A stretch of 64,000 bases of DNA from Bigelowiella natans CCMP2755 (taxonomy: Eukaryota > Protista > Cercozoa). The notes beneath the pieces were generated by a model. That model searched no databases. It was not told where the DNA came from and saw only the letters and a program-made list of their open reading frames with translations. Below are positions 2,477 through 49,600 of this stretch, one piece after another. Positions within the stretch are counted from its first letter, which is position 1; each line of letters opens with the position of its first letter. Location: positions 1-64,000 of the forward strand of contig ADNK01002279.1 in the NCBI GenBank assembly GCA_000320545.1. The letters are read 5' to 3'. A program made the translations under genes and the position numbers.

Positions 2477-4199
2477 TCATCTTCCCCATACAATCATATC
2501 CGAACACCATCTCAACTTTGCTCTTCACGGTTTCTCATTGAGCATTAGTACCTCCGGTGGGGGGGCTCGATTTGCTCTCCGGAATAAATTGATTTTCCCG
2601 CGGAAATGACTTTGATATACCCGTGTCAATGGAGCTAAACGGGCGCGCCAGGTCCCCCCCAAGCTTGTTTGAACTGCCGACTTCCCTCCAGTCAGTCCTC
2701 TGGGAGGCAGACATGCTGGAGGAGGGGGAAGGGAGGGGGGGTTGTGCGTGTAGAAAGGATCCGCCGGCCGGGTTTGTAGTGCTGTGTGAAAGGCATCTTT
2801 AGTAAACATAAAATCTCGGTTGGGACAATTCGTAATTCTTATATAGAGTAAGAGAACGAAGTATATATACTTGATCATGTTCAAGCAGGCAAGAATGCGT
2901 AACACGCATTGATTGGAATGGGAGGAAAGGACGGCACGCAACTACACGCACACCCTCGGAGGAATAAGTAAACGGAGTACAAGTATCAATTTGCCTATCG
3001 CAAATGTTTTTGTATTATTTTATTTTTTTAATTCTTATTTGGAAGTCAGTGAGACGAGGAAAGACAAACAAGAAAATGAAGAGAATATCCGAAGTCACAC
3101 AGTATAGAGTGTTATGAAAACGTCTTGTGCACATCATTTGGTGTAATTGATTGTTTAGCACCAAAACGCATAACGCATACAACGCGTGGATTGTGAATTA
3201 CCCTTCCGTTAAGAGGAGATCCTGTCTTCAGTGTCAGAAAGTGCTATTAGCTACAGGCAAAGAGATTAGCCATTAACTACATTGATTTCGATAACAAAGA
3301 GGAATGAGAAATTTGTCTATAAATGATCGTGGTCCACAACTGATATGCAGTCATGTGTTATAAAGGGGGTGATTCTTTCCTAGCGCAAAATGAAGGCGGG
3401 ATGGGCACTTCCGCCTTGCAAAAACGTAGTAAAAATGTGGCGACACTAACAAAATTCTCTCTAGAATATCAATTCTACAGATTATCTGAAGAATTCGAAA
3501 TGCCTTTGGAGCAATGACGCTATCACACCAGCCGATGACCTCCTCTTTACACAGAAGGAAGTTGAGCGGTGAAAAAGTGTCTTTGTCCACACAGGTCCGG
3601 AGCGAAGATGGGCTTGGCCCGTAAAATTTGTGCATACATTTTATTTATTTGTAAATTAATTCATTTCTGTGATTGCATCCCCTGAGGCAGGCTGCAACCG
3701 CGTGTTTCATCTTTCAAGCTCACCGGTGCCAGGTCTGCCCCATTATGCCGGCATATTCAGCCCTAACACTTTAGTGTACGCTCGCGAAGATCAGAAGTTT
3801 GAGGTCTATTTTCTTGATACGACATGTGATATTTTCAGTCGAAAGAAAAATATCAGGGCTTGCAATCCAACAATGGAATGGAAGGTTACTTCCGGTTGTT
3901 TTGAAAAGAATCGAATTGGGATTGCCCTCCTTCGTTCCTCGTTTTTCTGCACAGGTTTAAATCTGCATGGCGTTGTCGCTTGTGATGAACGCCTGGTCAA
4001 TGTGCTTTCTTCTTGTGTCAAACTAAGCCGACACTAAGATCTTTTTTGCCGTTTGCTGTTCATTGAAGGAAGGCTAGAAGGGCCCTGTCACCGAACCGCG
4101 TGTTGTGTTTGTGCATTTGGTGCGGATTGATGCAGCTTCCTAGCAATCTTTAGTGCTTATGCTCTACCTGGACCAGCTTTGCTATGCTCTTCGTCTCTG

Positions 4200-5250
4200 C
4201 GTGCTGGTTGTGCCGGAGGCACGCACAGCGGCAAGCTTTGTCGTTCATGTGGTTCTTGCTCGTGTGGTTTTTGCATCAATGCTTCATTCATTTTTCATTG
4301 TTCATTGTTCGCATGAACTTGTTCTGTTGCAAAGGCATTCAGAGTTTCACTTACATCTTTGGTGTTCGCCACATGTGGATGATGTGTTTTCTGGTTTTGT
4401 CCGTTTCTAGGTTTGACGTTGTCACGTTGCGCGTTGGCACTCCAGCACTGAACACCCAGCATTGAACACTGCTAGACTGAACTGAGCACACACACTGTCC
4501 GGCTGAACTACAAAATAGCGTGCGCAACAACCAAACGAGATGCGTGCATTTGGCACTAGTTGTGGAACAATGCCAGAATGGTCGTTCGATCTTCCTTGCA
4601 AGAATGACTCCAAGCTGGCAATCCAGCAGTGCGGCTGGAGTGCTGGAGTGCAAGTAGGTCGCATCACAGCTAGACAGCTAGACGCAACAGCGCTAGCAGC
4701 GCACTGGCGTGCAACGCACCAGCTAGCCAGGTAGCCACAGCTAGACAGAGCGTTCAACATCATCACCACACAGCTAGCTAGCTAGACAGCGCACTGCAGA
4801 CACACCTAGACATGCCAGCATGCAAGCATGGCTAGGTGGTCCCACAAGGGCACAACGTGACCACTGCATGGCTCTCTCTAGCTCTAGATGTCTTGCTGAA
4901 AACTGCTCATTGGCATTGCTAGATTGCTAGATTGTGGATTCGCGCGTGGACAATGCATTTCATTGTCAAACTAGCGCATGCTAGCATCTAGCTAGCTAGG
5001 CATGGCTGCCATGCTGCTACCAAACTCTAGAACTAGCAAATGCCATGTAGTAATGCGCTACTAGATTGCTTAGGGTTCCATTCTCACTGCGCATGCGCGA
5101 TTGCATTTCGTCTGTATCAATTGAAACAGCCAAAAACGGTCGCAGCACATCTAGATGTGCACACGCAACTAGGCAATATAGTTGCCAACAACGACGCTTT
5201 GAATTGTATGGCAGCTCAGAACTCCAATGTCATGTAAATCCTGTAAGAAT
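4200..5250. repeat. TpA-depleted, CTAG-rich degenerate repeat tract A
   Basis: In 4201-5040 nearly all TA steps are in CTAG (about 21 CTAG in 4670-5036). Shares a 39-bp motif with tracts at about 16970 and 49000. Confidence 0.8.
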
Positions 5251-6844: not shown

Positions 6845-7244
6845 CTGCAAAAGGCTAATTTAGGGATGTTGGAATGAAAGAAGTGTCGTCATCGATGTGC
6901 TGTAACAACGTGTAAAAGGCAAGCAAGCAACCCTCCGCAGGTTTGACATCATCTGCGCACATTTGATCGACAAAATATAGTGTCACACATCCCAATCGGT
7001 CACCTTCGAATCAAAATATATTCCTCCGTTTTTTCTTCGTTGCAATTTCTCCAACCGGAAATGAACTGCATGGACGCAGACCGACAGTCATTCGCCACCG
7101 CACTTCGTTTCCCAGAGCATTTTCTGTCATTGAGGCTATGCGCAGACCGCAGTGTTGACCTGTTTCCATGAAACCTCCCGTTAGTTGCTCCCATGCGAGG
7201 CAGTTTTTTCCTCCCTCACTTTTTCTCATTCGGTGAACTAATTG

Positions 7245-7860
7245 CATGCACTTGCTTTGCTCGGAACAAAGGCTTCATGCGGCTTGGATGCACCACAGTT
7301 GTCGCAGCGGAAAAACGCCCTTGATCCAATGGAGACACTGAAGCAATGGATGCGCCTGCGCCGAGTGCTTGCCGCAACGGATGTTCATTGTCGCATCACC
7401 AAAACTGGAGATGGAGCAATGCTAGCCAGTTTCCACTGAATTGGGACACGCACGGTGTTCATGACGTCGTCCAAACATTTGTGGAGTGAGTGTGTGGGCT
7501 AGCGGGATGCATGTGCTCATTTGCTTTCGCCAGCTAGCTGGTCATCGACACGAGCACACCAATGCATTCTGCACCCAGATGACCAATTCGCTAGTTCGGG
7601 TGCGATGGAGAACAAACGAAAGGCGCAAGGCCAGGGAGTGCACGTTGGTGCGCGGAAGTGGAGTCTCAGGCTTGATTCCTCTGCTCAGCTAGTTGCGTTC
7701 GTAATGCATTGTTTTGTCGCGTGCGTGGTGCGTCTCCGCTTTCGCATCATGCACGCAAACAGAGGTGACGATCGGGGTGTTTGTTTTTTTGCGGTTGCGT
7801 GTGACTCCATTGCAACGCACGCACGCATGCCAGCATGGCTCCACTTTGACAGGTCACATC
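7245..7860. repeat. TpA-depleted tract B
   Basis: Hand count in about 615 bp: 5 CTAG and only 1 other TA (GTAA near 7700). TA reappears abruptly at 7862. Confidence 0.8.
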
Positions 7861-7934
7861 TTAAACATCTCAAAAATAGGTTTTGTTCGGTGTACATCTT
7901 GCTAAAATTGTGTGCATTTGATGCAACATGAGAA

Positions 7935-9779
7935 TTAATGTGCAGGGGGATAAAACAGCGACTCTACATCATCAGGAGGTTCGCACAACAGCCACCGCAC
8001 TCGTTGTGCTACATCGGCAGGGAGGGGCGGCAAGTAGTCTTCATCTGTGTCTGGCACACGTGTGTCTACATTCTTGTATAAATCCTAGGCAAAAACAAAG
8101 AACCGATAGGGATTAGCATTATCTCACGAACTACGAGCAACGAACCATTCACAAAGATCGCTAAGGCCAAGCGAAAATAAAGTGTCAACTGTTCAATATG
8201 TTTTATTTCTCTTAAAATTCTAGGCTTACTTTTACGTGCAGCGCATCCTCGTTGGGAATGTACGGAAACATCCTGAAGTATTTGCCAGCACAACGTAAGG
8301 TCCTTTTGTGATTGTCACTCTAAAACTAGGAAAACGAAGAAAAGTAAATCAATATTGCTTACCATGCGCCTGTGGAGAGTTCTTGTGTAGGCTGGATTGC
8401 ATATCTATGGGATGGTTTTTCAAAATCAAATTGATGAAATCTCTTGGGATGCCTCCAAAACGTTATTATCATTTTGATTCCTTGGTGCTGTGTTTGCGTG
8501 CATTCGCATTCGATCAGTACAAGATATATATTCACATACCTGAAAGGAAAATAGTAGTCCAGCGCGTTGGGTACTCCTCTGCTGTTCGTGCTCGCCGATA
8601 ATCTGAGGTACAAAAGCGCGGGGAAAACAGGTATGGACATTGCTCTTTGCTCTTAAAATATCCATAAGGTTGAAATGAAAGGCGTGAATAGTATTCCTCG
8701 AAATAGAAACAAGGGAAAAATACAAATGCACGAACAGAAGAACAAAACCCTACGAAAAATCGATGCCATGTAAGGTAAAACATAAGACATGAAAGACGTT
8801 CACTCACGGAGAGGTCCCATTGTCCTTCTCATCTAATTGAGTATGAGCAAGCAAAAGCAACAACATCAAACAACCGGAAACAGCAAAATAAACATCAACG
8901 TTTTCACCCAACAAATTTTAAAAAAAAAATCGCAAATCCTAAGAGTTTCACAAGGCGTAGATTTCTCTCTTCAACAGGAACATCCAAGTCTCCATCAGGA
9001 ACCATTCGAATAGCTGCGATGCGCTTGCATGCATGGTACCACCCTGTAGTCGGAATCGAATCGTGTGTGCCTGGATAAAACGGAAGAACCGAGCATCGTG
9101 CGCTAATCGAAACCTACGCACAAAATATGTACTGAATACGTGCAGCAGAAGCACATGAAATTACAGCATTTGAAGAGAAACGTGATTCAAGCGCAAATGA
9201 ATAAGCTCCGGCTCTATACGCAACGTATTCATGCGGCGCGGAACGGTTTGGTGCTCTCACAAAGCAAACGCCGTTTTCGGCTGTCTCTATGTAGGCATTC
9301 ATTGCAGCTTCAAGCCCCTTATGAATACTAAATGCGAGGTGAGAAGCGAGGCAATCAACAACGGCATCATGTATCCTCTGTACCGATGATCTCGCAGCAA
9401 GTCATTGGACACAAGGTACACTCTCGAGCGTCCTGGAAAAAATGCGAAACTATATAAAATTGGGCGGGGAAACAACCAAAAGCTGAACGCGCACGCGTGT
9501 ATTATGCCTCTGCACACAGTCAGTATCACATCAACTAGCTTCTCTGACCGTCGTCGGAGTTGTAACGTAAGAAATCGTTCGCACTTCGAATCGCTCCGTA
9601 CCTGTTAGTTGGCATTGCACAACATATCAGAAAAACATGTAACAGAAAGCTAATTATAGAGACTACGAGGCCCCTCTCCCCGTGTGACTTGTATCTCCTC
9701 GACGAAAGGGGGAGGGACGAAGGGCAAGAAGAGCTGTTTATCTATATCTATACATATATCACATATGTTTAAATAGAAG

Positions 9780-14960: not shown

Positions 14961-16029
14961 CGAGTGTTATCCGAATGACTATTTGCCTTTCATTATCTCG
15001 ATGTCTTCGGCGTCGAGGGTTTTCTTCACTTTACTGTCCGCACTGCTGTGATCTGGAGCATCCTTGTTTCTCTTCTCTCCGCCTCCCCCCACTGCAAATA
15101 ACTCGGTCGATGGCCGCTTCTTTGCCCCACCTCGGAGTACCCCTCTAAAAATGTCTAAGTAGCTCTGGAGAGCTACACGTTCTATTCTAGGTTTACCATG
15201 CGAAACACTATTGAATAGTAAACCCGTCAGCCTGTGCCCGGAGGGTACGATAACAGATGCTGGCCTTGAGGCACTCAAGCGGCGCTGTGAGCACGGGGAG
15301 AGATTCACGCTCCCCGTCCTTTCCGCGGTCTTCGAAGAGGGCTGGTGCAAACACATGATGAAGGCAAAGAGGAGGAGCCACCAGAGCCTACACGATGTTG
15401 CGTGAAGCTACGTCAGCAAGGCAAGCATGCAGCGCTCACAACATACTCTACAAAATCTACCCCAGCCGGAGGGACCCTGCGCCCACCATCATCGTCGTTA
15501 GCAGAATCTTCAAAAACGGACTGTATTTCAGAAAAAATATTGGCAAAAATTGAATTTTCCAAAAAAAATCGCCTCTTCCGCGACCCACATCCGAAGACCA
15601 AACGGTCCTCCTCCTTCCCCCCCGCTGGCTCTTCGGAGCAATCTAGATGGCCAGCTCCTCGTCCAGCCCGGCCGATTACTAAGAAAAATTGGACGAATGC
15701 AAGAAGAGGCAGGCTGCAACTTTGGATGATCTGCGTGCTCAGGAGGGGAGGAGAGCGACTGCAGCGAAGAAGTGCAAAACCCTCAAGATGGGCGGGTTTG
15801 GTGCCATCGAGGATGAAGTTGAAGGAAAGCTGAAACAGTTTCGCTCCTTCATTTCAACGCAGATCGAACAAAACATCTTCCGGGTGTGATTGACAAAGTC
15901 AGAACGTCCCAAAACTGCGCCCATTTTCTCTTTTTTTCCTTCTGAGCGCAAAAGGTGGAGGGGCGTTGTGTCAGCGTCCTTGAGGAGCACACCGAAGAAA
16001 TTGTGTCCTGCAATGCGAAGCCTGCTGAG

Positions 16030-17400
16030 TCACCACACTGAAGTTGTCAAGTAGCAGTTGATCATCAACGTGTGTGACACACTACCACACACAGCAAAAA
16101 AAAGAGAGAAAGACACTGCAACACGGTGATGTGGTGCACGACAGGCGCAGGCAAAGAAACATCGTTCACTGTCACTCCTTGTGTGTGATTGTGGTTTGCC
16201 AGAGCATTGGCACACCCGGATGCGGGGAGCACATGGGAACAGTGTGTGAGCATTGCATTGGAGCTTCTAGTTTTTGGTGAGACACCAATGAAGGTGTCTT
16301 TGTTGCGTCGCTTTCACGATCATTTTCGCTAGTTTGGGGTGTTTGCTCGAACACTTCTACAAAATTGCCACTTCTGGCTAGCTGGCGCGCTTCATTGTCG
16401 GTGAATTGGGCACTTTGTGAGTGTGCTAGTGTGAGAGCGAGGCGTGGACTGCCGCACCACCTTTGGATCACACATGACCTGCCAGAATTGGAGAGCCCCT
16501 GGAGCGCCGGCAAATGACAAATCTAGAAATACGACCGTCTTTTTGACCTGTCACTGAGCAACTCCACGATCCATCGAGTCGCTTCGAGACTTCGAGACTT
16601 CAGACCAGCTGGTGGGCGAGCTGCGCTGCGCGGCCACCTGTTTCACCTGTGGAACAGGTCGACTTGCTAGCTTGGGGTTGGAGAAAACTTGGTGGAGCCG
16701 CTAGGCCGCCCTGTTTGACAAGGAGGGCTCGCAGGGCTAGCTAGCTAGAGGGATTGCTAGTGACCCCTAGACCCAGCCGGTGGTCATTCGCGCTAGCTCG
16801 CCTACGCTCTCGAAACGGTGAAGCACCGAACACGTTGAATTGAACGTTGAATTGAAGATCAATGCATGCAAAAATGACATGCAGCGTCGTGAACATGTTT
16901 GACATTGAACATTGAAAGAACATGGAACATTGAACATTGAACACAATGATGAACATTGGACAAATCATCAATGCAAAAACTACATGAGCATGAACCACAT
17001 GGGAGACAAGCGCCAACACAAGTGCACAACGTGCGCGTGAACCGCACTTCAGCATTGAACTCTGAACACTGAAAGTTGAACTGAGCATTCCAGCATTGCC
17101 TAGATTGCTGGATGGGTGCAACACAAAATGTGCGAAAGAACCACATGGGAGACACACATTTGCACGCAGCAGAACCTGCAAACAAAAATCATTGCGAGGA
17201 CTTGTCAGCACCCTCTAGTCCTCTAGCCCTGTCCAGCTGTTGGTGGTGATTGTTGTCAAGGCTGGCTAGCTGGTCACCACGCGATGCGAAGTCTGCTTCC
17301 TCTTTTTTCACCACCACCCAAATCTTAGCAAGTTTGAAGAACAGAAGAATCTCATCAAAACTAAAGTGCGCCCGCGGTGTGTCTAGGTGCCGCATCTAGC
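16030..17400. repeat. TpA-depleted degenerate repeat tract C with TGAACAT heptamer array
   Basis: TA is almost confined to CTAG (e.g. gggctagctagctagag at about 16735-16750). Imperfect (TGAACAT)n at about 16835-16960. Homologous motif to tracts A and H. Confidence 0.8.
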
Positions 17401-17879
17401 CCTTGAGGGAGGCGAGCAAGGTGGATTTGAGCCTCTCAGTGACTTCCGACTCCATCATCTATTCTGAGTCGCAAATTGAACCGAAAACACAACTGCGACA
17501 TGAAATTAGAGTAGATTTTGCCCAAAAAAGGAGAAGTTCCCCATTCCCATTTGAAACGCCACCCCCAAAGGAAGCCACCACTGTCTGTCCTCCAGTAGGC
17601 ATTCCGAGGTCAGCGCATGCATTCGAGATTTGCACTGGGAATCCTGTTAGCATGTTTTTGTTTCGCTTCGATGTATTTCTGCAAACACTCTCCCGTCGCC
17701 CCTGCCCCCTTTCAACCTTTCAACCAAGGATAGGGTTAAACTTTCCAGGTAACTTAACCGTGCGGTCCGATCAGAACACCAGCGTTCGAGTTCGGAAGCT
17801 CATTTGCTGCAATGAGTCGAGTAAGAATACTCATTAAATATAAACAGTGTTGGTACTCTAAAGAACTATTCAGTCGAAA

Positions 17880-32899: not shown

Positions 32900-33720
32900 A
32901 TGCATGTGGCATGTGTCCTACCTAGTGTTAGTCATCTACGCGCACATGCCAGACGATGATAGTGCTGCTATGCTATGTAGAGTACACATACCTAGACACG
33001 CGCACGCAAGCTTTGCTAGTGTGACTGGCCAAAGTTCTAAAGGTCTATAGGTGAGCCTTTCGATGCGCGGCGCTGTCAGAATGTCGACAACGTCATTGCA
33101 ACGCATCGCTGTTCTGCGGTCTCATATATTGTCGCACTAGCTAGCTAAGTAGCACGAATGTGATAAATGACATATATAGCAGATATGTGCTAGCATGTGC
33201 TAGCTAGCTAGTGTGCATGCACGCATGTCAACATCGCACGTTGTTTGTTGTGTTGCTTGCATCTAGCATATGTGAATGACTGCATGGAGCCTTGTACCCT
33301 TCTAGCCTTGCTATCCTAGCTAGCTAGCTAGCTAGTCGCCGTAGGTAGCTGATATTTTGATGTTATCAAAATAAAACTATTTACTTGCTAGCGGACGACA
33401 TGATTATACATTTCTAGATTTACATGCTACTAGGCTAGCGCATACTGCGCACTAGCACAAATGCTTATTAGACATGCACTAATATAAGGCATGGTCCCAT
33501 GTGCACGAGTTTGGTACACGCCAACACACTACTACTGATAGCTAGCTGGCTAGATAGCGCAAGCAATGCAACGCGCGCTCTCATCGCACAGCATCGCTAG
33601 CATAGAATAAGAAAACGTGGTCGCGTCGTCACCCTGGAGAGCTAGATCGAAAGATCGCTAACAGAATTCACTTGCCTATCACGATCCCCGCTGCGCGACA
33701 GAGAGCAACACGTTACGCAA
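32900..33720. repeat. Partially converted, CTAG-rich intergenic tract D
   Basis: Roughly 20 CTAG in about 800 bp, including cctagctagctagctagctag at about 33315-33336. TTAG and CTAA occur but I saw no TTAA. Many other TA steps remain. Confidence 0.7.
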
Positions 33721-33802
33721 ACCAAAGAAGAATTGTTAGATAGATGTACACGATGGAACAGCCCATACATGGCCATGGCTAGGACGCTCGCTCAGCCTTT
33801 AT

Positions 33803-35400
33803 TCACTTCGCATCTACTTCAGCCGCAGCTTCCTCTGCGGTGACGGGCTTGCGGTGGTTCTCATTGCTCATGTCGGAGCGACCTCGATTCGGAAACTTCT
33901 CTAATATACCTGGCGAATTCATGTGATGTTGGGTGGTTAGAACCGACGTGTCAGGATCGTAAAAACTTCATCTAAAATGACTCTCTCTACCAAGTCGGGG
34001 GAGAGTAAAAAAAAAACCGGGGGGGAAACTAAAACCAATGAAGACTTACGCAGTGCGCGATCGTAGATGAGATGGTTCTGGTGCGACTGCAGCCTTTCGA
34101 TTACTTGCAAGACGCCGGAATTTGTGACTGGCTTCATATACCTGGGAGCACGGTGGAGACCGATGGAAAAAAACAAGGAAACAACAGAAAGATAAGGAAA
34201 ACTAAACAAATCCAAAAGAAAACAGTAAATAAATACACCGCGACGGATGAAAACAGCACGGCCAAAGCGGCGGAGCTCTGATCGAAACTTGCAGCGGTAA
34301 AGCGCGTAGGTGCACCGCTCATCGGCACGAGAAACCATTCACGTGGATCCAAGGGCGTTAAGAGAATCAATAAAAATACAGCACTAACGAATCACACCAC
34401 CAAACCCCAAAAACAGGAAGGCTGGAAGCGGCCAGGACAAGGGATTTGGCAACACCGCGGCGCATCGTACCTGTTAGGCGTCTCGTCACTTCCGTCCTGC
34501 AGCACGTTGTATATCGTCCGCAGCGAGTTCATGAGGATGTCCAGTCTGGGGTCTGTGATGTGTGGGTTTAGCAGCTGCGCGACCTTCGATATCAACCCTG
34601 ATAGTAGTGGTATTAGCAGTAGTAGTAGTAGAAAAACAGCGCACACAGAAACGACAACAGGCGTCAGCAGATCTCCCATTACCAATGATAAAATGGCGCA
34701 GAGAGAGAGGGAGAGAGAGAGAGAGAGAGGGGGGGGGAGGAGGGGATCGTAGTATGCATAGTTTCGAGGAAGTGCTTCTTGGTGCGAGTGGGCTTGCCCC
34801 TCACCTCTTTTGACGAGATTTCTCATAGCTTCCTTTTGACTCACAGCGGCAATGGCCTTCACGGTCTTGGCTTTGACCTCAATATCGTCTGAGCGAAGGC
34901 CTTCTATCATGCCCTTAACATCCACCTCTTCAGTGTCATCGTCATCTTGATCGCCCTGCGGTGATGATGGCGATTAGTTGCGATAGTAATAAGACAAAGG
35001 AGGTTTCTCAAAAAGAATAAAACTGCGTTTGGTTCTCATAACCATTAGCAATATTATCATTATCATGGTAATCGGCATTGTTTTAGGCAAAAGTACCTCG
35101 ATCGAGCGGGTCGGAGAATCTATCGTTTTGGGCGTTTGGTCGGTATCTGTGTCGCCCGGTTCTTTTTTGCCATCCTCGCCTTCTTGCGCCTCCCCACCTC
35201 CGTCCTCGTCCACCACGTACACTGCATCTTCTAGGTTTACGAGGCCTGGATTTCAAACGCGACAGCAGCATTGGATTTTAAAAAAACTTGAATGAGAAAG
35301 CTAAACAAGCGACGCAATAGCAACCACCCTCGATCACCCCCACTTAAAATTGCGCGAAGGGAGGAAAATGAGGATGGGGAAGAGGGAGTCATCATCATCG

Positions 35401-38200: not shown

Positions 38201-38441
38201 TTTAAATATGCATGTAGTAGTAGTTCATGCCGCTAGTGCGTGAAGGCGATAGAACTTTCCGAGAATACAAAATAAAAGAAAAGTTTAAGTCACTCGCACT
38301 TTCGGGGTTTAACATAACTTCTAATTCCTTTTGAATGACAGAATTTCCAATAACAAAACGGATAGACTGAGGAAAGAAAAGGTCTGAACGTAACCTGAAA
38401 ACTATCAGCATTTGCTAACCCTCTTTCTACCCGCAGCCATC

Positions 38442-38677
38442 ATGACCGAGCGATTCAATATCCATAGCCAGCTTGAGCATCTTCAAATGAAGTATGTAGG
38501 TAAGATCCAGCTCTCTTTGTACGCTTGATATCGTCAAAAAAATGCGAGGAAGAAATAGTATCTCATAGCATGCGCATGTTCTTTCTTTCAGGGACAGGGC
38601 ATCCGGATATCACACGTTACGAATGGTACACATATAGAGCAACCTCCATCTATACCACTGCTGCTATCACACACACA

Positions 38678-38719
<42 letters not shown>

Positions 38720-39306
38720 CACACATACATACATAGACACATACCATCACACACATCACACACACACACACACACACATACAAACGTACCGGAAATCGCA
38801 CCTTACAAAACATTACAATACTTCAGGGTTGTCAACCATCATCGTGACTCTGCTGCCTCGTACATCGGCCACCACCATATGCTGCTAATGTTCGGTACGC
38901 AAAGTAGGGATTAGATAAGATGAATCAGTAGTTTCATGAATTTGGTGAAAATGGATAGTATCATATATCGGCATTGCATGTATAATGAATCAACTATATA
39001 TTGAACAATTTGCACTATATGCACGGCGAATCGAAGTTGATAATCAATCATCCCAATATTCTTTACAATGCTACAGGTACGGCTGAAAACGAATCCATGG
39101 GACGCGTGAAACACCGCTTATTAGCTCAGATGGTAGTTAAGCAACACTGTGGTGAAATAAACAAAGCTATACATATATCTGGAGCAATGACAATAGAAGA
39201 ATCTGGTCGTTATTTGTTTACAAGCTCTTTTTGGTCTCAGGTTGCTCCTTGCGGAAAAGAACCGAAGGGAGCTGAGGAGGAAGATGATGAAGACGAATTA
39301 GAATGA
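38442..39306 (+). CDS. SF3B5: Splicing factor 3B subunit 5 (SF3b10), 5 exons
   Basis: Spliced product MTERFNIHSQLEHLQMKYVGTGHPDITRYEWVVNHHRDSAASYIGHHHMLLMFGTAENESMGRVKHRLLAQMVAPCGKEPKGAEEEDDEDELE*, which follows the SF3B5 consensus (SQLEHLQ.KY.GTGH.D...EW..N.HRDS..SY.GH; AENES..RV). Confidence 0.97.
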
Positions 39307-40709
39307 GAAAGACAAACGGACGAAGTTCGGAGCCTTGACCGTTATCGACAAAGGTGCAATATGTTCTACTTGCCAAAAAGAATTGTTACCTAAGATAAAA
39401 TGGTGTAATAGTAACCTCTTCTTTTGAACCGATGTGCAATCTCATTACATTTCGAGTTGTTAAAGTGTCAATGAGCGAGGCGCATAGCATAGCACGCCAT
39501 GTCCAGCATCTGATAGCCTGTAACTAAATGGTCCATGTTGCAGCAATGCAGCCAGACATTTTGTGAAAATGCGTCAGATTTTTAATCAGAGCAACTTGTT
39601 CACACCAACAACTCCCTCAAATTCTGCTAACGAACTAGCTACAAGCCCGTCGCCTAAATTACATGCGTCATGTCCATCATCATTGGACTGCACCAGCACG
39701 TGCATGCGCACAGCGCGCAATGCACATGCTAGCATGTTCATGATGGACGACGCTCATTGTTTGCATGCGCATGCGTGCGATGCGGCAATTCTGTGCACTT
39801 TCATGATGAATGACTGACGTGACAGTCTAGCAGGCCATGAGAATGATGGACATGTGACAGCAGTCTGTGCATTCTAGCATTGCACGACAGTGTGCCATTG
39901 CTGTGTCTGTGATCAGTGCACAGCAAAAAAAAAATTGAATTCAGGCGACACTGATGTGATGGACATGTGATGTCACATGCACATTGCACACATCCAGACA
40001 TGCCATTGCTGTGTCCACAATGAGAGGCATGATGCGGATGCACTCAGCAGAACAAGCATGTTGTCCAAAGACAAAGACGCCATGATTGAAAAAATGATGC
40101 CAATTTGGACAATGCTGATGTGCTCAGCAGGACAAGTCTAGAAGTGCATCATCTGAAGACAAGGGCCCGTTTGCGCCTTCATCAGGCTTCGCTGGTGCAG
40201 CGCCAAATGGATTTGCCGAATGTGAATCGAGGTTGCACCCTCCACTACCCCCCACTTTCATTGCATCCACATCCATCCTGCTGATTTTTGCAAATTCAGA
40301 GCCAGCCTCTAACTGTTGCATCCGAAGGTGTCACTTCAACAGAAAATGGGGGAGGTGGTGTTGGATGCTGTGATTGAAAATGCAAATGACACTGATGGAT
40401 TGAAACATTGCACAAAAGCACAAAGTGCATCCATTTCCATGCATTTTTTCCCAAAATCAAGGCAACGGCTAGAACGGGTGCAAGTGTGGCAGTCGTCATC
40501 ATCTTGATTCCATTGCACTTTGAACATGAATCGAGAACTCTGTTCCCAACTTGAAAAAATCATGTCAACTCTGGAACAACTTCAAAAAAGTGTTCAATTG
40601 TTCCACGCCCAAGCCTTTTCAACATTGGCCGGACCACCATGAGGATTGGACAATTTGGGTGCTCCATCACACTGACAGACTTTGCCATGAAATGACAATG
40701 AGAGGCGCA

Positions 40710-42159
40710 TCAAGATCTGGGCGGGCGAACAACTCCAGCTCTTTTCACTTCTTCCACCAAATGCGAACGGAGGTCCACCGCATGAGCCACCCTTTGAAGG
40801 TTCAGCTCAACGTGTTCATCGTTTAGCAATTCAATCGGTGTCAAGCCCAATTTGCAACACTTCGGTGGCTTCACAGCCTCTGCCCTGCTGTCTTTCACTT
40901 CGGTGTGCCCGGCCTTGCATTCTTCAATGAGCTCTGACACCTGAGCGACCCCTTCCTTTGCATCGATTCTCTTTCTCCTCAGTTCTGCAATTGTTTCATC
41001 CTTGATCCTCATCATCCCTCCCTCATCGTCACGTGCTGTGTCGCTTCTGTCTCGTTCAACGGCCTTCGCAATGTCATGGGAATTTGTGAGGTTGTGCAGC
41101 TTCGTGCATGCGAACACGATCTTGCCTGCCTTCCTGTGATGAAACCTCATTGGAGACCACAAAATGCCGAATCTTCCAACCAGACGACCGAAGGCGCATT
41201 CTGTGGTGATTCTCAATTGACTCACTGCAAAGTTGCAATTCGATTTCTCATCACCCAGGTCTGACCCGGTGAAAGGCGACGTCAAAAGTTCATGGACCCC
41301 GCAAGCCGCGTCCCCGATCAGGAAATGACCAACCTCGAGAGCTCCATTCAGCAACTCTGAAGCTGCTTGTGTGACTTCATCATCTTCCATGCGACAGAGT
41401 TGGAGCCGGAGCCTCCTGTTGCTGTGCTGGCAGCGATGAAACGACAGTCAGAGTCGCAGACGGCCTGCAGGTTCAACGCATGATGGTGCTGCCTGCAGTG
41501 GAATCTTTTGACATGCTGTGTTTCTTTGTCGCTGGGTCTCCGCATCTTCACTGACAATCCGTCCATGGCTCCTGTGCAACCTTTGATTGCTTGGTTCATG
41601 CTGAGGCCTCCAAACCCAGCTTCAACTTCTTGTCGACCTGTGTTTCATTCGAAGGATCAAACCCAATTTTGCAGCACTCGTTTGTTGCATCCAATGTCCT
41701 CCAGAAATTGTGGTGGACGGAACGTTCCGCCACACCATGCAGGTCAGCTGTCCAGCTGTGTCTGGGCACGATCCTCCTGCTGGTAACCTGAGCGTCATTG
41801 ACAATGAAAGTTTGTGGGGATGCAATCTTCGCTGCTTGAATGCCGTTCATGCTTCTCTGACCGGGGTCCAATGCCAGAGTGTCGTCACAAGTTTTGTGGA
41901 ACAACTCCAAGGGCATCCTGTGTCTGCGTCTGAAAGCCATTGGAGACAGCCTGTCGATTCTCTTGATCCAATCCAGCCTGTTCGCATGTGATCTGGGCTT
42001 CGGCTTCCTTCTCTTCTTGTTCTTCAGGTGATCCACATGCTCGAGCACTTCCAATGCGTCAATGGCACGTTCAGCATCAAACCCCACCAAGTCCCATGGT
42101 GCAATGGAAGACGGGTCAAACGTGGGTGTCAACAAACCAGCGAGCATCATGGGCATCAA
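40710..42159 (-). pseudogene. PIF/Harbinger (DDE_Tnp_4 / HARBI1-like) transposase, frameshifted and missense-riddled
   Basis: Frameshift-linked frames retain RLDW..., FRRRHRM, LRLPAGGSCPDTA, GCTGAMDG, ALNLQAVCDSDCRF, FLIGDAACG, NCNF...RITTECAFGRLVGRFGILW and KLHN. An apparent 8-nt duplication (ggacagct) lies near 41750. Confidence 0.92.
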
Positions 42160-43119
42160 AACGTGAGGTGTGGGTGGTGAGAGTCATTGTTGCCCGACGC
42201 AGCGGAGGATGACCTGTGATCTGCCCAGTTGAATGCCGCCCTGCGTGATTCCGGGTGGACCAACATGACTTGCTTCACGTGCCACACCTTGTCGAAGTGC
42301 AAGCCGATGAACTGCCTCGGGATTCGGGATCAGATTTGGATGCATGAACAATGAACAATGATGATGAACCACACTTCCAAAACGTGACAAGACACTTGCA
42401 GTGTGCGAAGTGCAGTGCCTCGAACCAACTTCAGTGAGGTCCAACACAACCAGTGAAACCATGAGGAATCAAGAATGGCATTCTGGCCACTCCTCCGTTC
42501 CTAGTTTCATTGTCTTCAGTGCCTGACATTTGCCAACTTCAGGACCACGCATCCCCAAATCATGCCGCGATGGTTTGCTCATGCTTGGAGATCACCAAGC
42601 AAGAACACCACACCTGCGAACCCCAAGCGAACAATCCCGTGGACCACACCTTCATGGTCTGCTTCACACCTGCCACAATTTCCCCGGCTTTTGCGGAGAC
42701 ATTGCCCTCACTGGAAGGCATGAAGATGGAGGAGGATGCATTCTTCGTTCCCAGTCCACTTGGACAACGAGCTTCGCAATGACCACAGTCGGGCACTTTG
42801 TCGGATGCATCCCCGGCTTTTGCGGATGCAAAGCCCCAATCATTGCAATTGGAAGCACTAGCTTCACGCCAACCACAACATCCCCGGTCCAATGGAGACA
42901 TTGCCTGGAGGGCATGAAGTTTGAGAAGGACACCTTCATCCTGACGGGATTCATCCGGGATGAATCTTGGATGCAGACCCGAAAATCCTTCACTTGGCAG
43001 CCAATTCGCCGGTGGCCTGCCCCATCGGTGAACAGGAAAGTGGCACAGGGATGAGGGGAAAAGCCACCCTCGCAACCGAAAAACCCCCCGCCCAGTGCCA
43101 CGTCGGCGAATGCAACTTC

Positions 43120-43445
43120 AAATCTTGAACACAGATCCATGCATCCTTCATCTGGCTACCGAGTCACCGGTGGCTGGGGCGACAAGTCTGTCTACCCCAC
43201 CAGTGACCAGGAATGTGGTTCAGGGGTGGGAGGTGACCAACCCCCCCTGCACATTGCCGCATCGCGCCAATTTTTTCCGAACGTGCATGACTCTGAATCT
43301 TGAATGCCGATCCACACATCCTTCATCTGGCTACCTAGTCACCGGTGGCTAGGGCGACATGTCTGTCCATCCCACCAGTGTCCAGAAATGTGGTTCAGGG
43401 GTAAGAGGTGATCAAACCCCCCGCCCATTGCCGCATCGCGCGCCG
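43120..43445 (+). repeat. Two imperfect direct repeats of about 150 bp (about 43120-43268 and 43296-43443) at the end of the Harbinger tract
   Basis: Shared text aatcttgaa...gatcca..catccttcatctggctacc.agtcaccggtggct.gggcgaca.gtctgtc...ccaccagtg.ccag.aatgtggttcaggggt..gaggtga.caa.ccccc...cattgccgcatcgcgc. Confidence 0.92.
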
Positions 43446-43768
43446 CATCGGCGGCAACTGCCAGACTGGACAATGCATGCACTTGCATTTTTTCGTTGTC
43501 GCAGCTCGTCATCCATTTTTCAACTGACGACAATACCACGGAGTTTGTCTCTATGATAAAACGCAAAACAAACACATCACTACATAAAATCCAGTCAACT
43601 TCTCATCTACGAGCACATACCACAGGATTACAGGTGGCTAGTGCAAGTGCGACAATGTGTCTGTTACTGCCGGGATTTAACAGAATATTGTTGGCCACCA
43701 GACCTTTTTTGTTATTATTTTCCCCAAATTTTGAATTTTTAAATCGAGACCCGTATTCAATTGGGCGA

Positions 43769-46159: not shown

Positions 46160-47490
46160 TGCATTGATGGCATCATGCATCGATCTGGGCGCGCATGCAC
46201 ATGCGATGGCATGCAAGCAATGTTGTGTGCACATCTACGCAAGAAGCGAAGCATAGCTATCATTAGAGATTATAGCCTTCATTTGTGCATGCGTAAACCC
46301 ACACGTTTCATTGTTTCCATGTGTGTGATTACGTGCACACATGTTCTCTTCCACTAGCATGTAGCACACATGCACTGACGAACATGTGAAATGTCCGATG
46401 ATTTGCGTAGCTCAGACCATGGTGTACACGAATAGAGACATTAGCGTCTACATCTAGACATGCCGCCTCTGACTTGCATCGCCATCGCAGATGTTGCAAT
46501 GTGACATGACTAGCTAGATGTCCATGTGGTCGCGATTCACGGCGACAAATCAGCATGCACAACGAATCACAACGATCAAATCAAGCATCAAACGGCTCTA
46601 AAAGCTCAACTTGTGCGCACATGCTGGTGAACATTGTCGCGTGCCTTTGAAAATCATTGAACATTTGACAAACGATCATTGTGCTCATCTGTTTGTAACA
46701 ATTTACGCTCTTTCGTGACCATGATCTTTGTGTCAACGCACTACACAACATGAGTAAGTGATGATGAAATCATGACTACCACGACTTTTGTGTCTGGCAG
46801 TCCTGCTTTGCAGGACTAGCGGTTGGCGACCTGGAGGAGAGCGAGGAAGAATGTGTTGAGGATGCTTGGAAATCCGATTCATATTCTTTCAAATGAGGGA
46901 TGTCGATTGCAGAACTAGAGGACGATGAACACGACGAAAAAGTCATTGTTTCCAACAAGGGAGGTGTCGTCTCTGACAAGAAGCTGAGAGCTTCATCTAT
47001 GTGCGTACGTCTTACTCGTGGAATTTCTCAAAACCGCTTCGATTCCGCAGCTCGACGCCAGTGATGCATGTTCGGAAACTCGCAGCACTTTAGTCCGAAG
47101 CTTGTGGTGCACAACAGCGCACGTGCACAGAGGGACACACATGCATACATGCATGTACATGCATGTATGCATGCACATCCATTGCGTGCGTGTCATCATG
47201 TGTGCACGTCATGCCCGCGATGCGCACACGTACATGTGCCTGTCAAAGTAGCATTGTTGCTTGCATGCCCACGTAGTGCTAGCAGGCATGCATGCAAGGT
47301 CGAGCGTCTAGAACATGTATGTGTGCATGGTTTTCGCGTCTTCTTGTCGTCTGAATCAGACCATGCGCTGAGCTGCATCAAATGTCTGAGTGAAACCGAG
47401 CAAAGCGTGCAAGTCGCAATTTCCAGACGATTATTGGGCACGGCTGTGGGATGCATGCATCGTACGCACCGCCATGCTACGTGCGATCAA
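46160..47490. repeat. Partially TpA-depleted intergenic tract G, including a fossil (TA)n microsatellite at 47135-47178
   Basis: Strong CATG/TGCA excess. 47135-47178 is a strictly alternating purine/pyrimidine run built only from CA, TG and TA steps. Confidence 0.7.
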
Positions 47491-48060
47491 TGAGCAAGGT
47501 TTATTTCGGTCATATACCCTTCGCTTAAATGACGTAGGGAGATTTATCGCAATCACTTTGAGCAACATCAATGGACTTGCGCAGCAGGCAGGCAAAGAAA
47601 GGTCAAACTCATCATGTTTTTATTAAACAAATCGAGTGGGGCGGTGTTTCTTGCGCGTATCCTTTCGCATGACATGCGCCATGCGCGATCCACCGACTCG
47701 CACATGTCGCTGATCACATGTTTAATGATTTTCTGAGCACATTGAGGCGTGTTTGACAGGCAGACTATGATTCTACTTGGATGTAATTCAGAAAACACAA
47801 GCGAACTGGTCATTCATGTAAAAACTGGAGCTCAGACGTAGGATGTTTATTTGTAGACCGCGAGCAGTAAACGATCTCATGAAGCCCCAAAAAATCAAGT
47901 TAGATTTCGTAATCTACACTTTTCGTCCCCAAATATCCTCTTCGGTTATTTTCCCTTGATTCAAATTTGTTTGAATTCGTGCTCGCTACGAAGCCCCCCA
48001 ATAAGGTCAGTTCCGCCAAGATCATCTTTGAGCCTCGCAAAACAATCAACGATCCAACGA

Positions 48061-48660
48061 TCAAGGGAGCAAGTGATTTTCGAAATTTTTCAATATGGAT
48101 AGAATCAGCGTGAGATCGAACGTCTTCTCAGTCATCATTAGCTTCAAGAATTCCGGCATGGTTGAGAAGGACACCACATGCTGGTGGATGGTTTTCATGA
48201 CGAGTTTGAGCATTCCTAAACTAGGAACCGCGCGAGAATCTGGTTTGGCCTTCTTTTTGGCCTCCAAAAATTCACTGTGCAACGTTTCTGCCCAAGCCTC
48301 AGCTTTTACGGAATTGCCAGACACTCTCTGCCTGTTGCCTTTCACGATCATCTTGCAAATGGCATTGATTAAGTTGGGAGCATCCGAGTCCGTTTTGAAA
48401 TCTTCGTCAGTGAAGAGCTCTTCGTCTATCACCTTATCTCGCCATTTGGAAGGAAACCTCTGTGTATCTTCAAGGAATTCCAACAAAACTTCTCTTCCGT
48501 TTGGAAGTGTGTCAAAGTCCACACGGCGTCCCTCAGTAGAGTTGCTGTGCACGAGCGTCCTCTCATCATGTACAATAGCCGCATTGGATGCACCGATGTT
48601 GAGAAGAATCGGAAGCAGCCATAAGGCAGCGGTAGCAACATCACACATTCGTTTTGCCAT
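48061..48660 (-). pseudogene. Tyrosine-free 199-aa intronless ORF in a partly converted tract; probable degenerate mobile-element or captured gene
   Basis: No Tyr in 199 aa. A frameshifted continuation (LDRWIVDCFARLKDDLGG...) follows. No family recognised. Confidence 0.4.
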
Positions 48661-48859
48661 GGTTGGGGGGTCTGCTTTCCCTGATCCTCGGAGTTTGAAC
48701 GAGCCGAGTGTTTTGGAATTTTTGAATTTTTTGAATTCGAAACCGCGCCTTCGGTTGTCATTACATTTTGATCATAAAAGTGTTGTCGCACGTGTAGTTT
48801 CCCCTTGAAATGTGAAAACATGAACAATGCAATCAGGCGTTTTTTGCTTGAGTCCTTGC

Positions 48860-49600
48860 AACGACTGTTGTTGAGGCTCTGTTACGTGCACACGCCTGTC
48901 ATCATGCATTTCGGTTGCACGCTTGCAACGTTTTGGAAATGCAGTTCATCATCATTGCTCATTGCACACTTGTCTCCCAATTGTTGTCTCCCACGTGGTT
49001 CTTGTGAACGTGGATTTGCATCAATGCTTTGTTCTGCTGCGTTCTGCTCTGGTTGCAAAAATCGGAATCTGGCCATGAAATTGTTCGACCGAATTGGTGA
49101 CAACAATCAGAGCGCAGGTCTGCTGAGGAGTGAAGCGCTAGCCCCAATGCTGCGTGCCCACGCTTGTCTTCCATGTGGTTCTGTGGTTCTCGCAGCTAGC
49201 TAGCTAGACGAATTGCAGAATCTTGGAAAAAAAGTTGCACAAAAAATTCCATCTCGAATCGAACACACAAACTAGCAAACGCCATGTGTGTGGTTTGAGC
49301 TGGCTGTGGTGGTCCCTAGCAATTTGATCTGCACGCACGCACGTGTGCATTCTTTGGCGATCATGATCACAATCGCCAGCAATGGCGATGCGTTCTGGCG
49401 TTGCATCTAGAAATGCTCAATCAAAACGTCCAGATTTGCAATGGACATGTGCACCGCATCCACGGCATTTGCTGCGCGAGCTAGCGAGCAGCGTGACATT
49501 CCAGCATTGACAACCGAAGCTGCACACGACGACGACTGATGCTCATTCACACATGTGGTTTTGTGCTCTAGATGTCATGCAATGGCGCCGCAAACGCTAA
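48860..49600. repeat. TpA-depleted tract H
   Basis: In 48860-49590 every TA I found is in CTAG (about 9). Shares the repeat motif with tracts A and C at 48991-49029. Confidence 0.8.

What the first reader, a model, noticed from the sequence alone, without database searches (positions are those of the whole stretch)
43120..43445. Internal control: duplicate copies differ by reciprocal CA vs TG at the same sites
Seen: gaaCAc (43130-31) vs gaaTGc (43305-06); gatccaTGcatcc (43140-41) vs gatccaCAcatcc (43315-16); gtcTAc vs gtcCAt; ggcTGggg vs ggcTAggg; ggggTGGg vs ggggTAAg. CA and TG at one site differ by two substitutions, but each is one step from TA. Inference: the copies were mutated independently after duplication. 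This evidence does not rely on protein consensus, and it shows that CTAG is slowed but not immune.
Basis: seen in the sequence. Interest (0 to 1): 0.8.

Follow-up and report, generated by a model that had tools for sequence, protein, structure and literature searches.

The report
TA-erasing mutation caught between repeat copies
In this protist DNA, one copy of a repeat beside a broken transposon has had most of its TA letter pairs rewritten to CA or TG while related copies keep them, likely the work of a host mutator aimed at selfish DNA like the one recently reported in the alga Bigelowiella natans, and the word CTAG is partly spared.

Summary
All five columns are real. Outgroup copies of the same repeat (L001-L003) settle polarity: they carry TA, never CG, at both reciprocal CA/TG columns and at two of the three single-step columns. 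Across the 1.1-kb repeat the window changed 21 of 25 shared TA (11 CA, 10 TG) but only 2 of 30 shared CG, so CpG deamination is refuted. One cited column is backwards: at 43175-76/43350-51 the family has TG, so that CTAG was gained. 'CTAG slowed, not immune' still holds on other columns (42751-54 clearly, 42483-86 probably). The duplication is an old part of the repeat family, not local. The repeat abuts a broken PIF/Harbinger transposase inside a 3.8-kb TpA-erased domain. The process matches TpA hypermutation reported in Bigelowiella natans (bioRxiv 10.64898/2026.01.13.699255), probably this host (not established). The scan noted it before in diatom-like genomes. New here: polarised proof in transposon-type DNA and a CTAG protection rule absent from the preprint's main text. 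The enzyme (adenine deaminase) is inferred.

The parts
43119..43267 (.). Tandem unit 1 of the repeat. Derived TA>CA at 43130-31; TA>TG at 43140-41, 43227-28 and 43255-56; TA kept at 43157 and 43193 (both CTAC).
43294..43441 (.). Tandem unit 2. Derived TA>TG at 43305-06; TA>CA at 43315-16 and 43368-69; CTAG gained at 43349-52 by G>A.
42961..43118 (.). Third, more diverged unit (70-77% over its first 56 nt). It has TG at the column where unit 1 has TA and unit 2 has CA.
42344..43453 (-). High-copy non-coding repeat holding the units. Contig depth is about 20-500 times single-copy and highest near the 42344 end, which has a short tandem tail; minus-strand RNA lies at about 42380-42533. It resembles the 3' part of a non-LTR retroelement-like repeat (inferred). 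8 TA here against 39 in L001.
42751..42754 (.). CTAG in both outgroups, CCAG in the window: the clearest case that CTAG is not immune.
42483..42486 (.). CTGG in the window, CTAG in L003, GTAG in L001: probable second converted CTAG.
42501..42504 (.). CTAG kept in the window and both outgroups. Also kept at 42858-61 and 43335-38, each shared with one outgroup.
40710..41644 (-). Broken PIF/Harbinger-type transposase: two DDE_Tnp_4 pieces in different frames, no tyrosine, Tyr columns read His or Cys.
41596..42183 (-). Probable N-terminal piece of the same transposase (no Pfam hit; 12 weak matches among the 149 relatives).
39640..43480 (.). TpA-erased domain: 11 non-CTAG TA against about 216 expected from host DNA, and 9 CTAG against 8.8 expected.

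Best explanation
TA dinucleotides in this repeat copy were converted to CA or TG on both DNA strands after it diverged from related copies, likely by a host activity aimed at this transposon-derived domain, predicted to be an adenine deaminase of the TadA/ADAT2 kind acting on chromosomal DNA. Shown: TA is the ancestral state; products are CA and TG in equal numbers; CG is not hit; the change is confined to blocks of selfish DNA, while the host gene next door keeps its TA and tyrosines; CTAG is lost more slowly. Inferred: deamination of the A in 5'-TA-3' gives inosine, which is copied as G. A hit on the top strand leaves TG and a hit on the bottom strand leaves CA, and either hit destroys the target, so homologous sites end as reciprocal CA/TG. 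A 5' C or 3' G slows the reaction, so the palindrome CTAG is slowed on both strands and becomes a sink for newly made TA. Targeting is inferred to be by domain (chromatin or RNA guided), because erasure is nearly complete over the transposase and fades at the edges.
For: Outgroup units carry TA at four of the five cited columns. 21 of 25 TA shared by L001 and L003 are changed in the window, against 2 of 30 CG (22 of 26, Fisher p=1.6e-9). Per base, transitions hit 25 of 64 TpA bases, 14 of 376 other A/T, 2 of 75 CpG bases and 7 of 393 other G/C. Products are 11 CA and 10 TG. L001 and L003 keep 25 TA in common although the three sequences are about equally distant (89-91%). Majority alleles in the organism's own runs match both outgroups at 19 of 20 listed rows, and L001 alone at the 20th. 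At 43193-94 the family shows C in 60-65% and G in 22-27% of depth, leaving at least 9% TA; at 43228 A is 56-67%. In the transposase, Tyr columns read His or Cys, four Ile/Val/Leu columns read ACA or ATG, and three CGN Arg codons at Arg-rich or relative-matched columns are kept. Survival by context in six TpA-poor blocks relative to host DNA: CTAG 3.2, CTAC/GTAG 0.39, CTAA/TTAG 0.34, all others 0.06-0.20. The same spectrum was measured directly in a mutation-accumulation experiment in B. natans (bioRxiv 10.64898/2026.01.13.699255).
Against: No enzyme, guide or chromatin mark was seen; sequence alone cannot tell A>G from T>C chemistry. The host species is not established: both searches with the KH-domain host protein returned nothing, and no genome is held. 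L001-L003 are metagenome contigs of unknown organism and were picked by a pattern. The CTAG rate rests on few polarised sites: 2 kept and 2 lost against 2 kept and 20 lost, p=0.10, and only two sites are CTAG in both outgroups (1 kept, 1 lost). Whether 5' C or 3' G protects is undecided (7 vs 3 products, p=0.34). Copy selectivity is uneven: family depth keeps T at 42426 and 43044 in 80-89% but A at 42616 in only about 20%. Non-TpA A:T>G:C changes (14 of 376) are also slightly above G:C>A:T. The blocks were drawn by eye on TA density, which inflates their depletion.
Confidence: 0.7

Rival explanations
1. Same TpA-targeted process, but the chemistry is on thymine (oxidation to a form that pairs with G) or an error-prone polymerase or repair step working in silenced domains, not adenine deamination.
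For: It predicts the same TA>CA/TG spectrum on both strands. The ADAT2 candidate in the preprint is a prediction only. Thymine modification in repeats of other protists is recalled, not from a call.
Against: TadA/ADAR-type enzymes favour a U or T before the edited A (stated for ADAR in the preprint), which fits the motif. Nothing in the window points to thymine modification.
Confidence: 0.2
2. CpG methylation-deamination: ancestral CG decayed to CA in one unit and TG in the other.
For: CG observed/expected is 0.4-0.8 in the domain, and CG>CA/TG also gives reciprocal columns. CA/CG polymorphisms exist in the family at 43150 and 43202.
Against: No outgroup unit has CG at any cited column. 28 of 30 shared CG are intact. 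Best likelihood 2e-4 against 0.10 for the TA model. Part of the low CG ratio follows from the added C and G (inference).
Confidence: 0.02
3. Opposite polarity: the window is ancestral and the outgroups gained TA by RIP-like C>T at CpA.
For: One cited column (43350-51) does run TG>TA. Only two long outgroups are available.
Against: Outgroups have TA in both units where the window has CA in one and TG in the other. The window domain is far below host TA levels while the outgroups are near 0.5-0.6. Transposase relatives have Tyr where the window has His or Cys.
Confidence: 0.02
4. Editing of an RNA or cDNA intermediate of a retroelement (ADAR-like) before insertion, or selection on an active element to avoid UpA.
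For: The repeat looks retroelement-like and part of it is transcribed.
Against: Editing one strand gives one product, but 11 CA and 10 TG are seen. The adjacent DNA transposase shows both His and Cys at Tyr columns and is broken by the changes and a frameshift.
Confidence: 0.04

Closest known systems
TpA hypermutation of integrated viral DNA in Bigelowiella natans (Mettrop et al., bioRxiv 10.64898/2026.01.13.699255; whole main text read; supplements not seen)
   Same: TpA>TpG and TpA>CpA on both strands, confined to foreign-derived regions. The preprint also finds TpA-poor predicted genes enriched for DDE endonuclease and reverse transcriptase domains.
   Different: There the directly measured targets are a single-copy NCLDV insert and a virophage insert, and transposons are inferred from composition only. 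Here the target is a DNA transposon plus a multi-copy repeat, polarised with outgroup copies, and CTAG is protected; 'CTAG' and 'context' occur 0 times in its main text. No de novo rate was measured here.
Fungal repeat-induced point mutation (RIP)
   Same: Dense, dinucleotide-specific transitions on both strands of repeats that break transposon genes (described in the preprint; details recalled).
   Different: RIP is C>T and creates TpA from CpA; this destroys TpA and raises G+C.
PIF/Harbinger DNA transposon (Pfam PF13359 DDE_Tnp_4)
   Same: Two transposase pieces pass the Pfam cut-off (41.9 and 45.7 bits against 24.8).
   Different: Broken. Terminal repeats and target duplication were not resolved. 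The duplicated units belong to a separate high-copy repeat next to it.
Earlier notes of this scan on TpA-erased transposons in diatom-like genomes (unchecked AI notes)
   Same: Same TA>CA/TG signature in transposons; some notes mention CTAG survival.
   Different: Those notes stress TTAA survival. Here TTAA is not protected (ratio 0.09) and CTAG stands alone (3.2).

Membership tests
B. natans-type TpA hypermutation | A:T>G:C transitions concentrated on TpA | tested here: met
   25 of 64 TpA bases against 14 of 376 other A/T bases, p=4e-14
B. natans-type TpA hypermutation | Both products, TpG and CpA (both strands) | tested here: met
   10 TG and 11 CA among 21 converted sites
B. natans-type TpA hypermutation | Confined to foreign or selfish DNA | tested here: met
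   Domain covers a DDE_Tnp_4 transposase and a high-copy repeat; flanking host DNA returns to normal TA levels
B. natans-type TpA hypermutation | [quoted passage not shown] | tested here: inconclusive
   rho TpA 0.23, 0.02, 0.02, 0.16 (4 of 4 pass); rho CpA+TpG 1.91, 1.49, 1.63, 1.47 (2 of 4 pass) with my formula and window phase
B. natans-type TpA hypermutation | Host is B. natans or a close chlorarachniophyte | tested here: inconclusive
   Four short introns in an SF3B5-like gene read by eye, many (AC)n arrays, run contig totals 103-158 Mb and EukProt-sourced protein models fit B. natans (94.7 Mb, 8 introns per gene, 182 bp mean, highest ACn density; PMC13746701 passages). No named homolog was obtained
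B. natans-type TpA hypermutation | Raised de novo mutation rate today | not testable with these tools
   Needs mutation-accumulation or strain data mapped to this locus
B. natans-type TpA hypermutation | ADAT2-like deaminase as the agent (proposed, not shown, in the preprint) | not testable with these tools
   No genome held; needs experiment
Fungal RIP | C>T transitions creating TpA | tested here: not met
   TA is ancestral and lost; G:C>A:T at 9 of 468 G/C bases
CpG methylation decay | Ancestral CG lost to TG/CA | tested here: not met
   28 of 30 shared CG intact; no CG at the cited columns
ADAR-type editing of a retroelement RNA | A>G on one strand only | tested here: not met
   11 T>C and 10 A>G on the + strand
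PIF/Harbinger transposon | DDE_Tnp_4 transposase | tested here: met
PIF/Harbinger transposon | Terminal inverted repeats and 3-bp TAA/TTA target duplication (recalled feature) | tested here: inconclusive
   Only short inverted matches of 17-19 nt between 39773-39965 and 43364-43443; no long arm
PIF/Harbinger transposon | Second Myb/SANT-type gene (recalled feature) | tested here: inconclusive
   No Pfam hit in the frames scanned around the transposase; not all frames were scanned and decay may hide it

The most novel reading that the evidence does not exclude
The mutator is a general 'reverse RIP' for selfish DNA, not a virus-specific one. It is loaded on silenced domains, spreads from a transposon core into whatever repeat lies beside it, leaves other copies of the same repeat largely alone, and is blocked on both strands at CTAG. 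CTAG then marks old targets and gives a substrate rule for finding the enzyme. If the scan's diatom-like cases are the same system with a different flank preference, it would be an old genome defence shared by Rhizaria and stramenopiles.
Probability: 0.3. Interest if true: 0.8.

Novelty: new member of a known kind. Interest (0 to 1): 0.45.

Why it matters
The one published report shows the process directly only on two viral inserts and infers transposon targets from base composition. This locus gives copy-against-copy proof that transposon-type DNA is hit, that both strands of the chromosome are hit, and that sister copies can escape. The CTAG rule is a concrete prediction: it can be checked at once against the preprint's list of de novo mutations and used as a substrate panel for the candidate deaminase. 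The core phenomenon is not new, and the scan has met it several times, which caps the score.

Tried and rejected
No whole genome is held. Word-based homolog search for the transposase returned only itself; the HMMER search gave 149 relatives. Two searches with the KH-domain host protein found nothing, the Atlas gave only generic KH clusters under 0.9, and cluster look-ups gave no names, so the species was not established. The first pattern scan of metagenome contigs was empty; viral contigs were empty. The second read lay could not list 43130-31 or 43140-41, apparently because they lie within 31 letters of the stretch's start; these columns were polarised from L001-L003 instead. No RNA holder was listed for the stretch. 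Rfam: 0 matches in the window and the three loci. No long terminal inverted repeat was found. Deciding between a 5' C block and a 3' G block from product asymmetry was inconclusive. One 2x2 table (flanked vs unflanked sites) was mistyped; corrected it is 4 of 16 vs 0 of 10 kept, p=0.14, not significant. In one search I left out two poorly aligned patches (42436-42462, 43268-43292) and the ragged ends; this drops one converted TA site and the CTAG candidate at 42450-53. Literature: searches for CTAG with TpA/adenine deaminase/repeats/protist and for diatom TpA hypermutation each returned 0 papers at 4 of 5 terms; some searches gave the one relevant preprint plus background. bioRxiv 10.1101/2025.11.19.688996 (passages) has no CTAG motif; 10.64898/2026.08.24.746577 (abstract and outline) and PMC6260743 (passages) were not useful. 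The preprint's supplements were not seen and may contain flank information.

Full report
Observation. The two units align over 148 columns with 19 differences. Position shuffles that keep the substitution types give two or more reciprocal doublets in about 0.5% of trials, and three or more in under 0.05%. The pattern is more than chance.

Setting. The window is eukaryotic, intron-rich and full of microsatellites. From about 39640 to 43480 TpA is almost absent: 11 non-CTAG TA against about 216 expected from host DNA, while CTAG is at the host level, 9 against 8.8. The domain holds a PIF/Harbinger-type transposase in two frames (DDE_Tnp_4). The duplicated units are not in that gene. They lie in a separate repeat, 42344-43453, whose contig depth is about 20-500 times single-copy and highest near the 42344 end, against about two copies for the transposase. 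The depth gradient, a short tandem tail and minus-strand RNA near that end suggest the 3' part of a non-LTR retroelement-like repeat; this is inference. Five more TpA-poor, CTAG-rich blocks occur in the window.

Polarising the columns. A pattern scan of metagenome contigs gave three loci. L001 and L003 cover the repeat at about 86% BLAST identity and contain the same tandem pair; L002 has one unit. At 43130-31 all 5 outgroup units have TA. At 43140-41, 3 have TA, 1 CA, 1 AA and none CG. At 43193-94 all 5 have TA, and the window's own third unit has TG there, so the window shows all three states. At 43227-28 the 4 covering units have TA followed by G, so unit 1 is derived and the A at 43404 is a separate G>A. 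At 43175-76 all 5 have TG. Four of these were selected by my pattern, but L003 unit 1 was not, and contigs of the window's own organism show neither G>A at 43176 nor T>C at 43175 at a 6% threshold where depth is greatest. At 43119-20 the four L001/L003 units have TG, so that reciprocal column came from TG by two steps (TG>TA>CA or TG>CG>CA); reciprocity alone does not prove a TA ancestor.

Spectrum over the whole repeat. With two poorly aligned patches left out, 21 of 25 TA shared by L001 and L003 are changed in the window (11 CA, 10 TG), against 2 of 30 CG (22 of 26 in the first alignment). Per base the transition rates are 25 of 64 in TpA, 14 of 376 in other A/T, 2 of 75 in CpG and 7 of 393 in other G/C. 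The three copies are about equally distant (89-91%), yet the outgroups share 25 TA, so the loss is specific to the window's lineage. The outgroups are themselves partly eroded (TA observed/expected 0.5-0.6). Majority alleles in runs of the window's organism agree with both outgroups at 19 of 20 listed rows, so they are fair stand-ins for the family. The family is a mixture: 80-89% of depth keeps T at 42426 and 43044, 56-67% keeps A at 43228, but only about 20% keeps A at 42616. Independently, the transposase has no tyrosine; columns where relatives have Tyr read His or Cys, and CGN arginine codons persist.

CTAG. Relative to host DNA, survival in the six blocks is 3.2 for CTAG, 0.39 for CTAC/GTAG, 0.34 for CTAA/TTAG and 0.06-0.20 for the rest. 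All four surviving shared TA have a 5' C. CTAG is not immune: 42751-54 is CTAG in both outgroups and CCAG here, and 42483-86 is probably a second case. It is kept at 42501-04, 42858-61 and 43335-38. The polarised numbers are small (2 of 4 lost against 20 of 22, p=0.10). The graded pattern fits a flank effect that acts per strand and so is doubled in the palindrome. Whether 5' C or 3' G is responsible could not be decided (7 vs 3, p=0.34). The gained CTAG at 43349-52 shows why CTAG can pile up: new TA made by ordinary G>A or C>T change is removed again except in this context (inference).

Mechanism. Shown: direction, dinucleotide target, strand symmetry, local confinement and CTAG slowing. Inferred: adenine deamination to inosine in chromosomal DNA by a TadA/ADAT2-like enzyme, guided to a silenced domain. 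Erasure is near total over the transposase and incomplete at both edges, which suggests domain-level targeting. Thymine chemistry or error-prone repair would give the same spectrum and remains open. CpG decay, RIP-like gain of TA in the outgroups and one-strand RNA editing are each contradicted by the counts above.

What is known. Mettrop et al. (bioRxiv 10.64898/2026.01.13.699255; whole main text read; supplements not seen) measured TpA>TpG/CpA hypermutation at about 1000 times the background rate in two viral inserts of B. natans. They found TpA-poor genes enriched for DDE and reverse-transcriptase domains and proposed an ADAT2 homologue without testing it. The main text does not mention CTAG or flanking context, and two targeted searches found no paper at 4 of 5 terms. 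The host here fits B. natans in intron density, (AC)n abundance and genome scale (PMC13746701 passages), and its protein models come from EukProt, but no call names it. I put it at roughly 85%. The scan has earlier, unchecked notes on the same signature in diatom-like genomes; they describe TTAA as spared, which does not hold here.

Verdict. Observation confirmed; interpretation right on TA ancestry and wrong on the one CTAG column, though its conclusion survives on other sites. This is a new, well polarised case of a recently reported process, extended to transposon-type DNA with a testable flank rule. Interest 0.45.

Noticed in passing
window 4000-5150, 7000-7950, 15450-17600, 46450-47500, 48000-49600: Five more TpA-poor blocks, most rich in CTAG, some with GCTAGCTAG runs; 69 of the 78 CTAG in the six blocks lie here. 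Blocks at 4238-4310 and 16932-17009 share a motif, and 48922-48964 matches the 42349-42391 end of the repeat.
   Followed up: partly
window 33000-33650: Very CTAG-rich (24 in 33001-34000) but other TA are not depleted: perhaps an old erased block that has since regained TA, or a slippage expansion.
   Followed up: no
window 42380-42533: Highest-copy part of the repeat, with abundant minus-strand RNA reads that carry the TA-type allele at 42426, 42451 and 42616 in 86-89% of reads: the transcribed copies appear to be the less mutated ones.
   Followed up: no
L003:1609-1788 and L003:577-636; L001:1-84: DNA next to or inside the outgroup repeat copies is itself TA-poor (2 TA, both CTAG, against 14.7 expected; 0 against 3.7; 0 against 5.6), so these contigs come from an organism with the same process, and a little-mutated copy can sit beside erased DNA.
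   Followed up: partly
L001:1145-1192: After its second unit L001 runs straight into sequence like window 42452-42489, so the 1-kb repeat can occur in tandem.
   Followed up: no
window 48061-48771 (-): Tyrosine-free 199-aa open frame of unknown family inside a TpA-poor block, with a 96% identical relative on another contig.
   Followed up: partly
window 38441-39307 (+): SF3B5-like splicing factor gene with four short introns, normal TA content and intact tyrosines, ending about 350 bases from the erased domain.
   Followed up: partly
window 15739-16029 (-): Weak match to a C17orf113-type zinc finger (E=0.002, under the cut-off) in a TpA-poor block; may be a remnant of a transposon gene.
   Followed up: no
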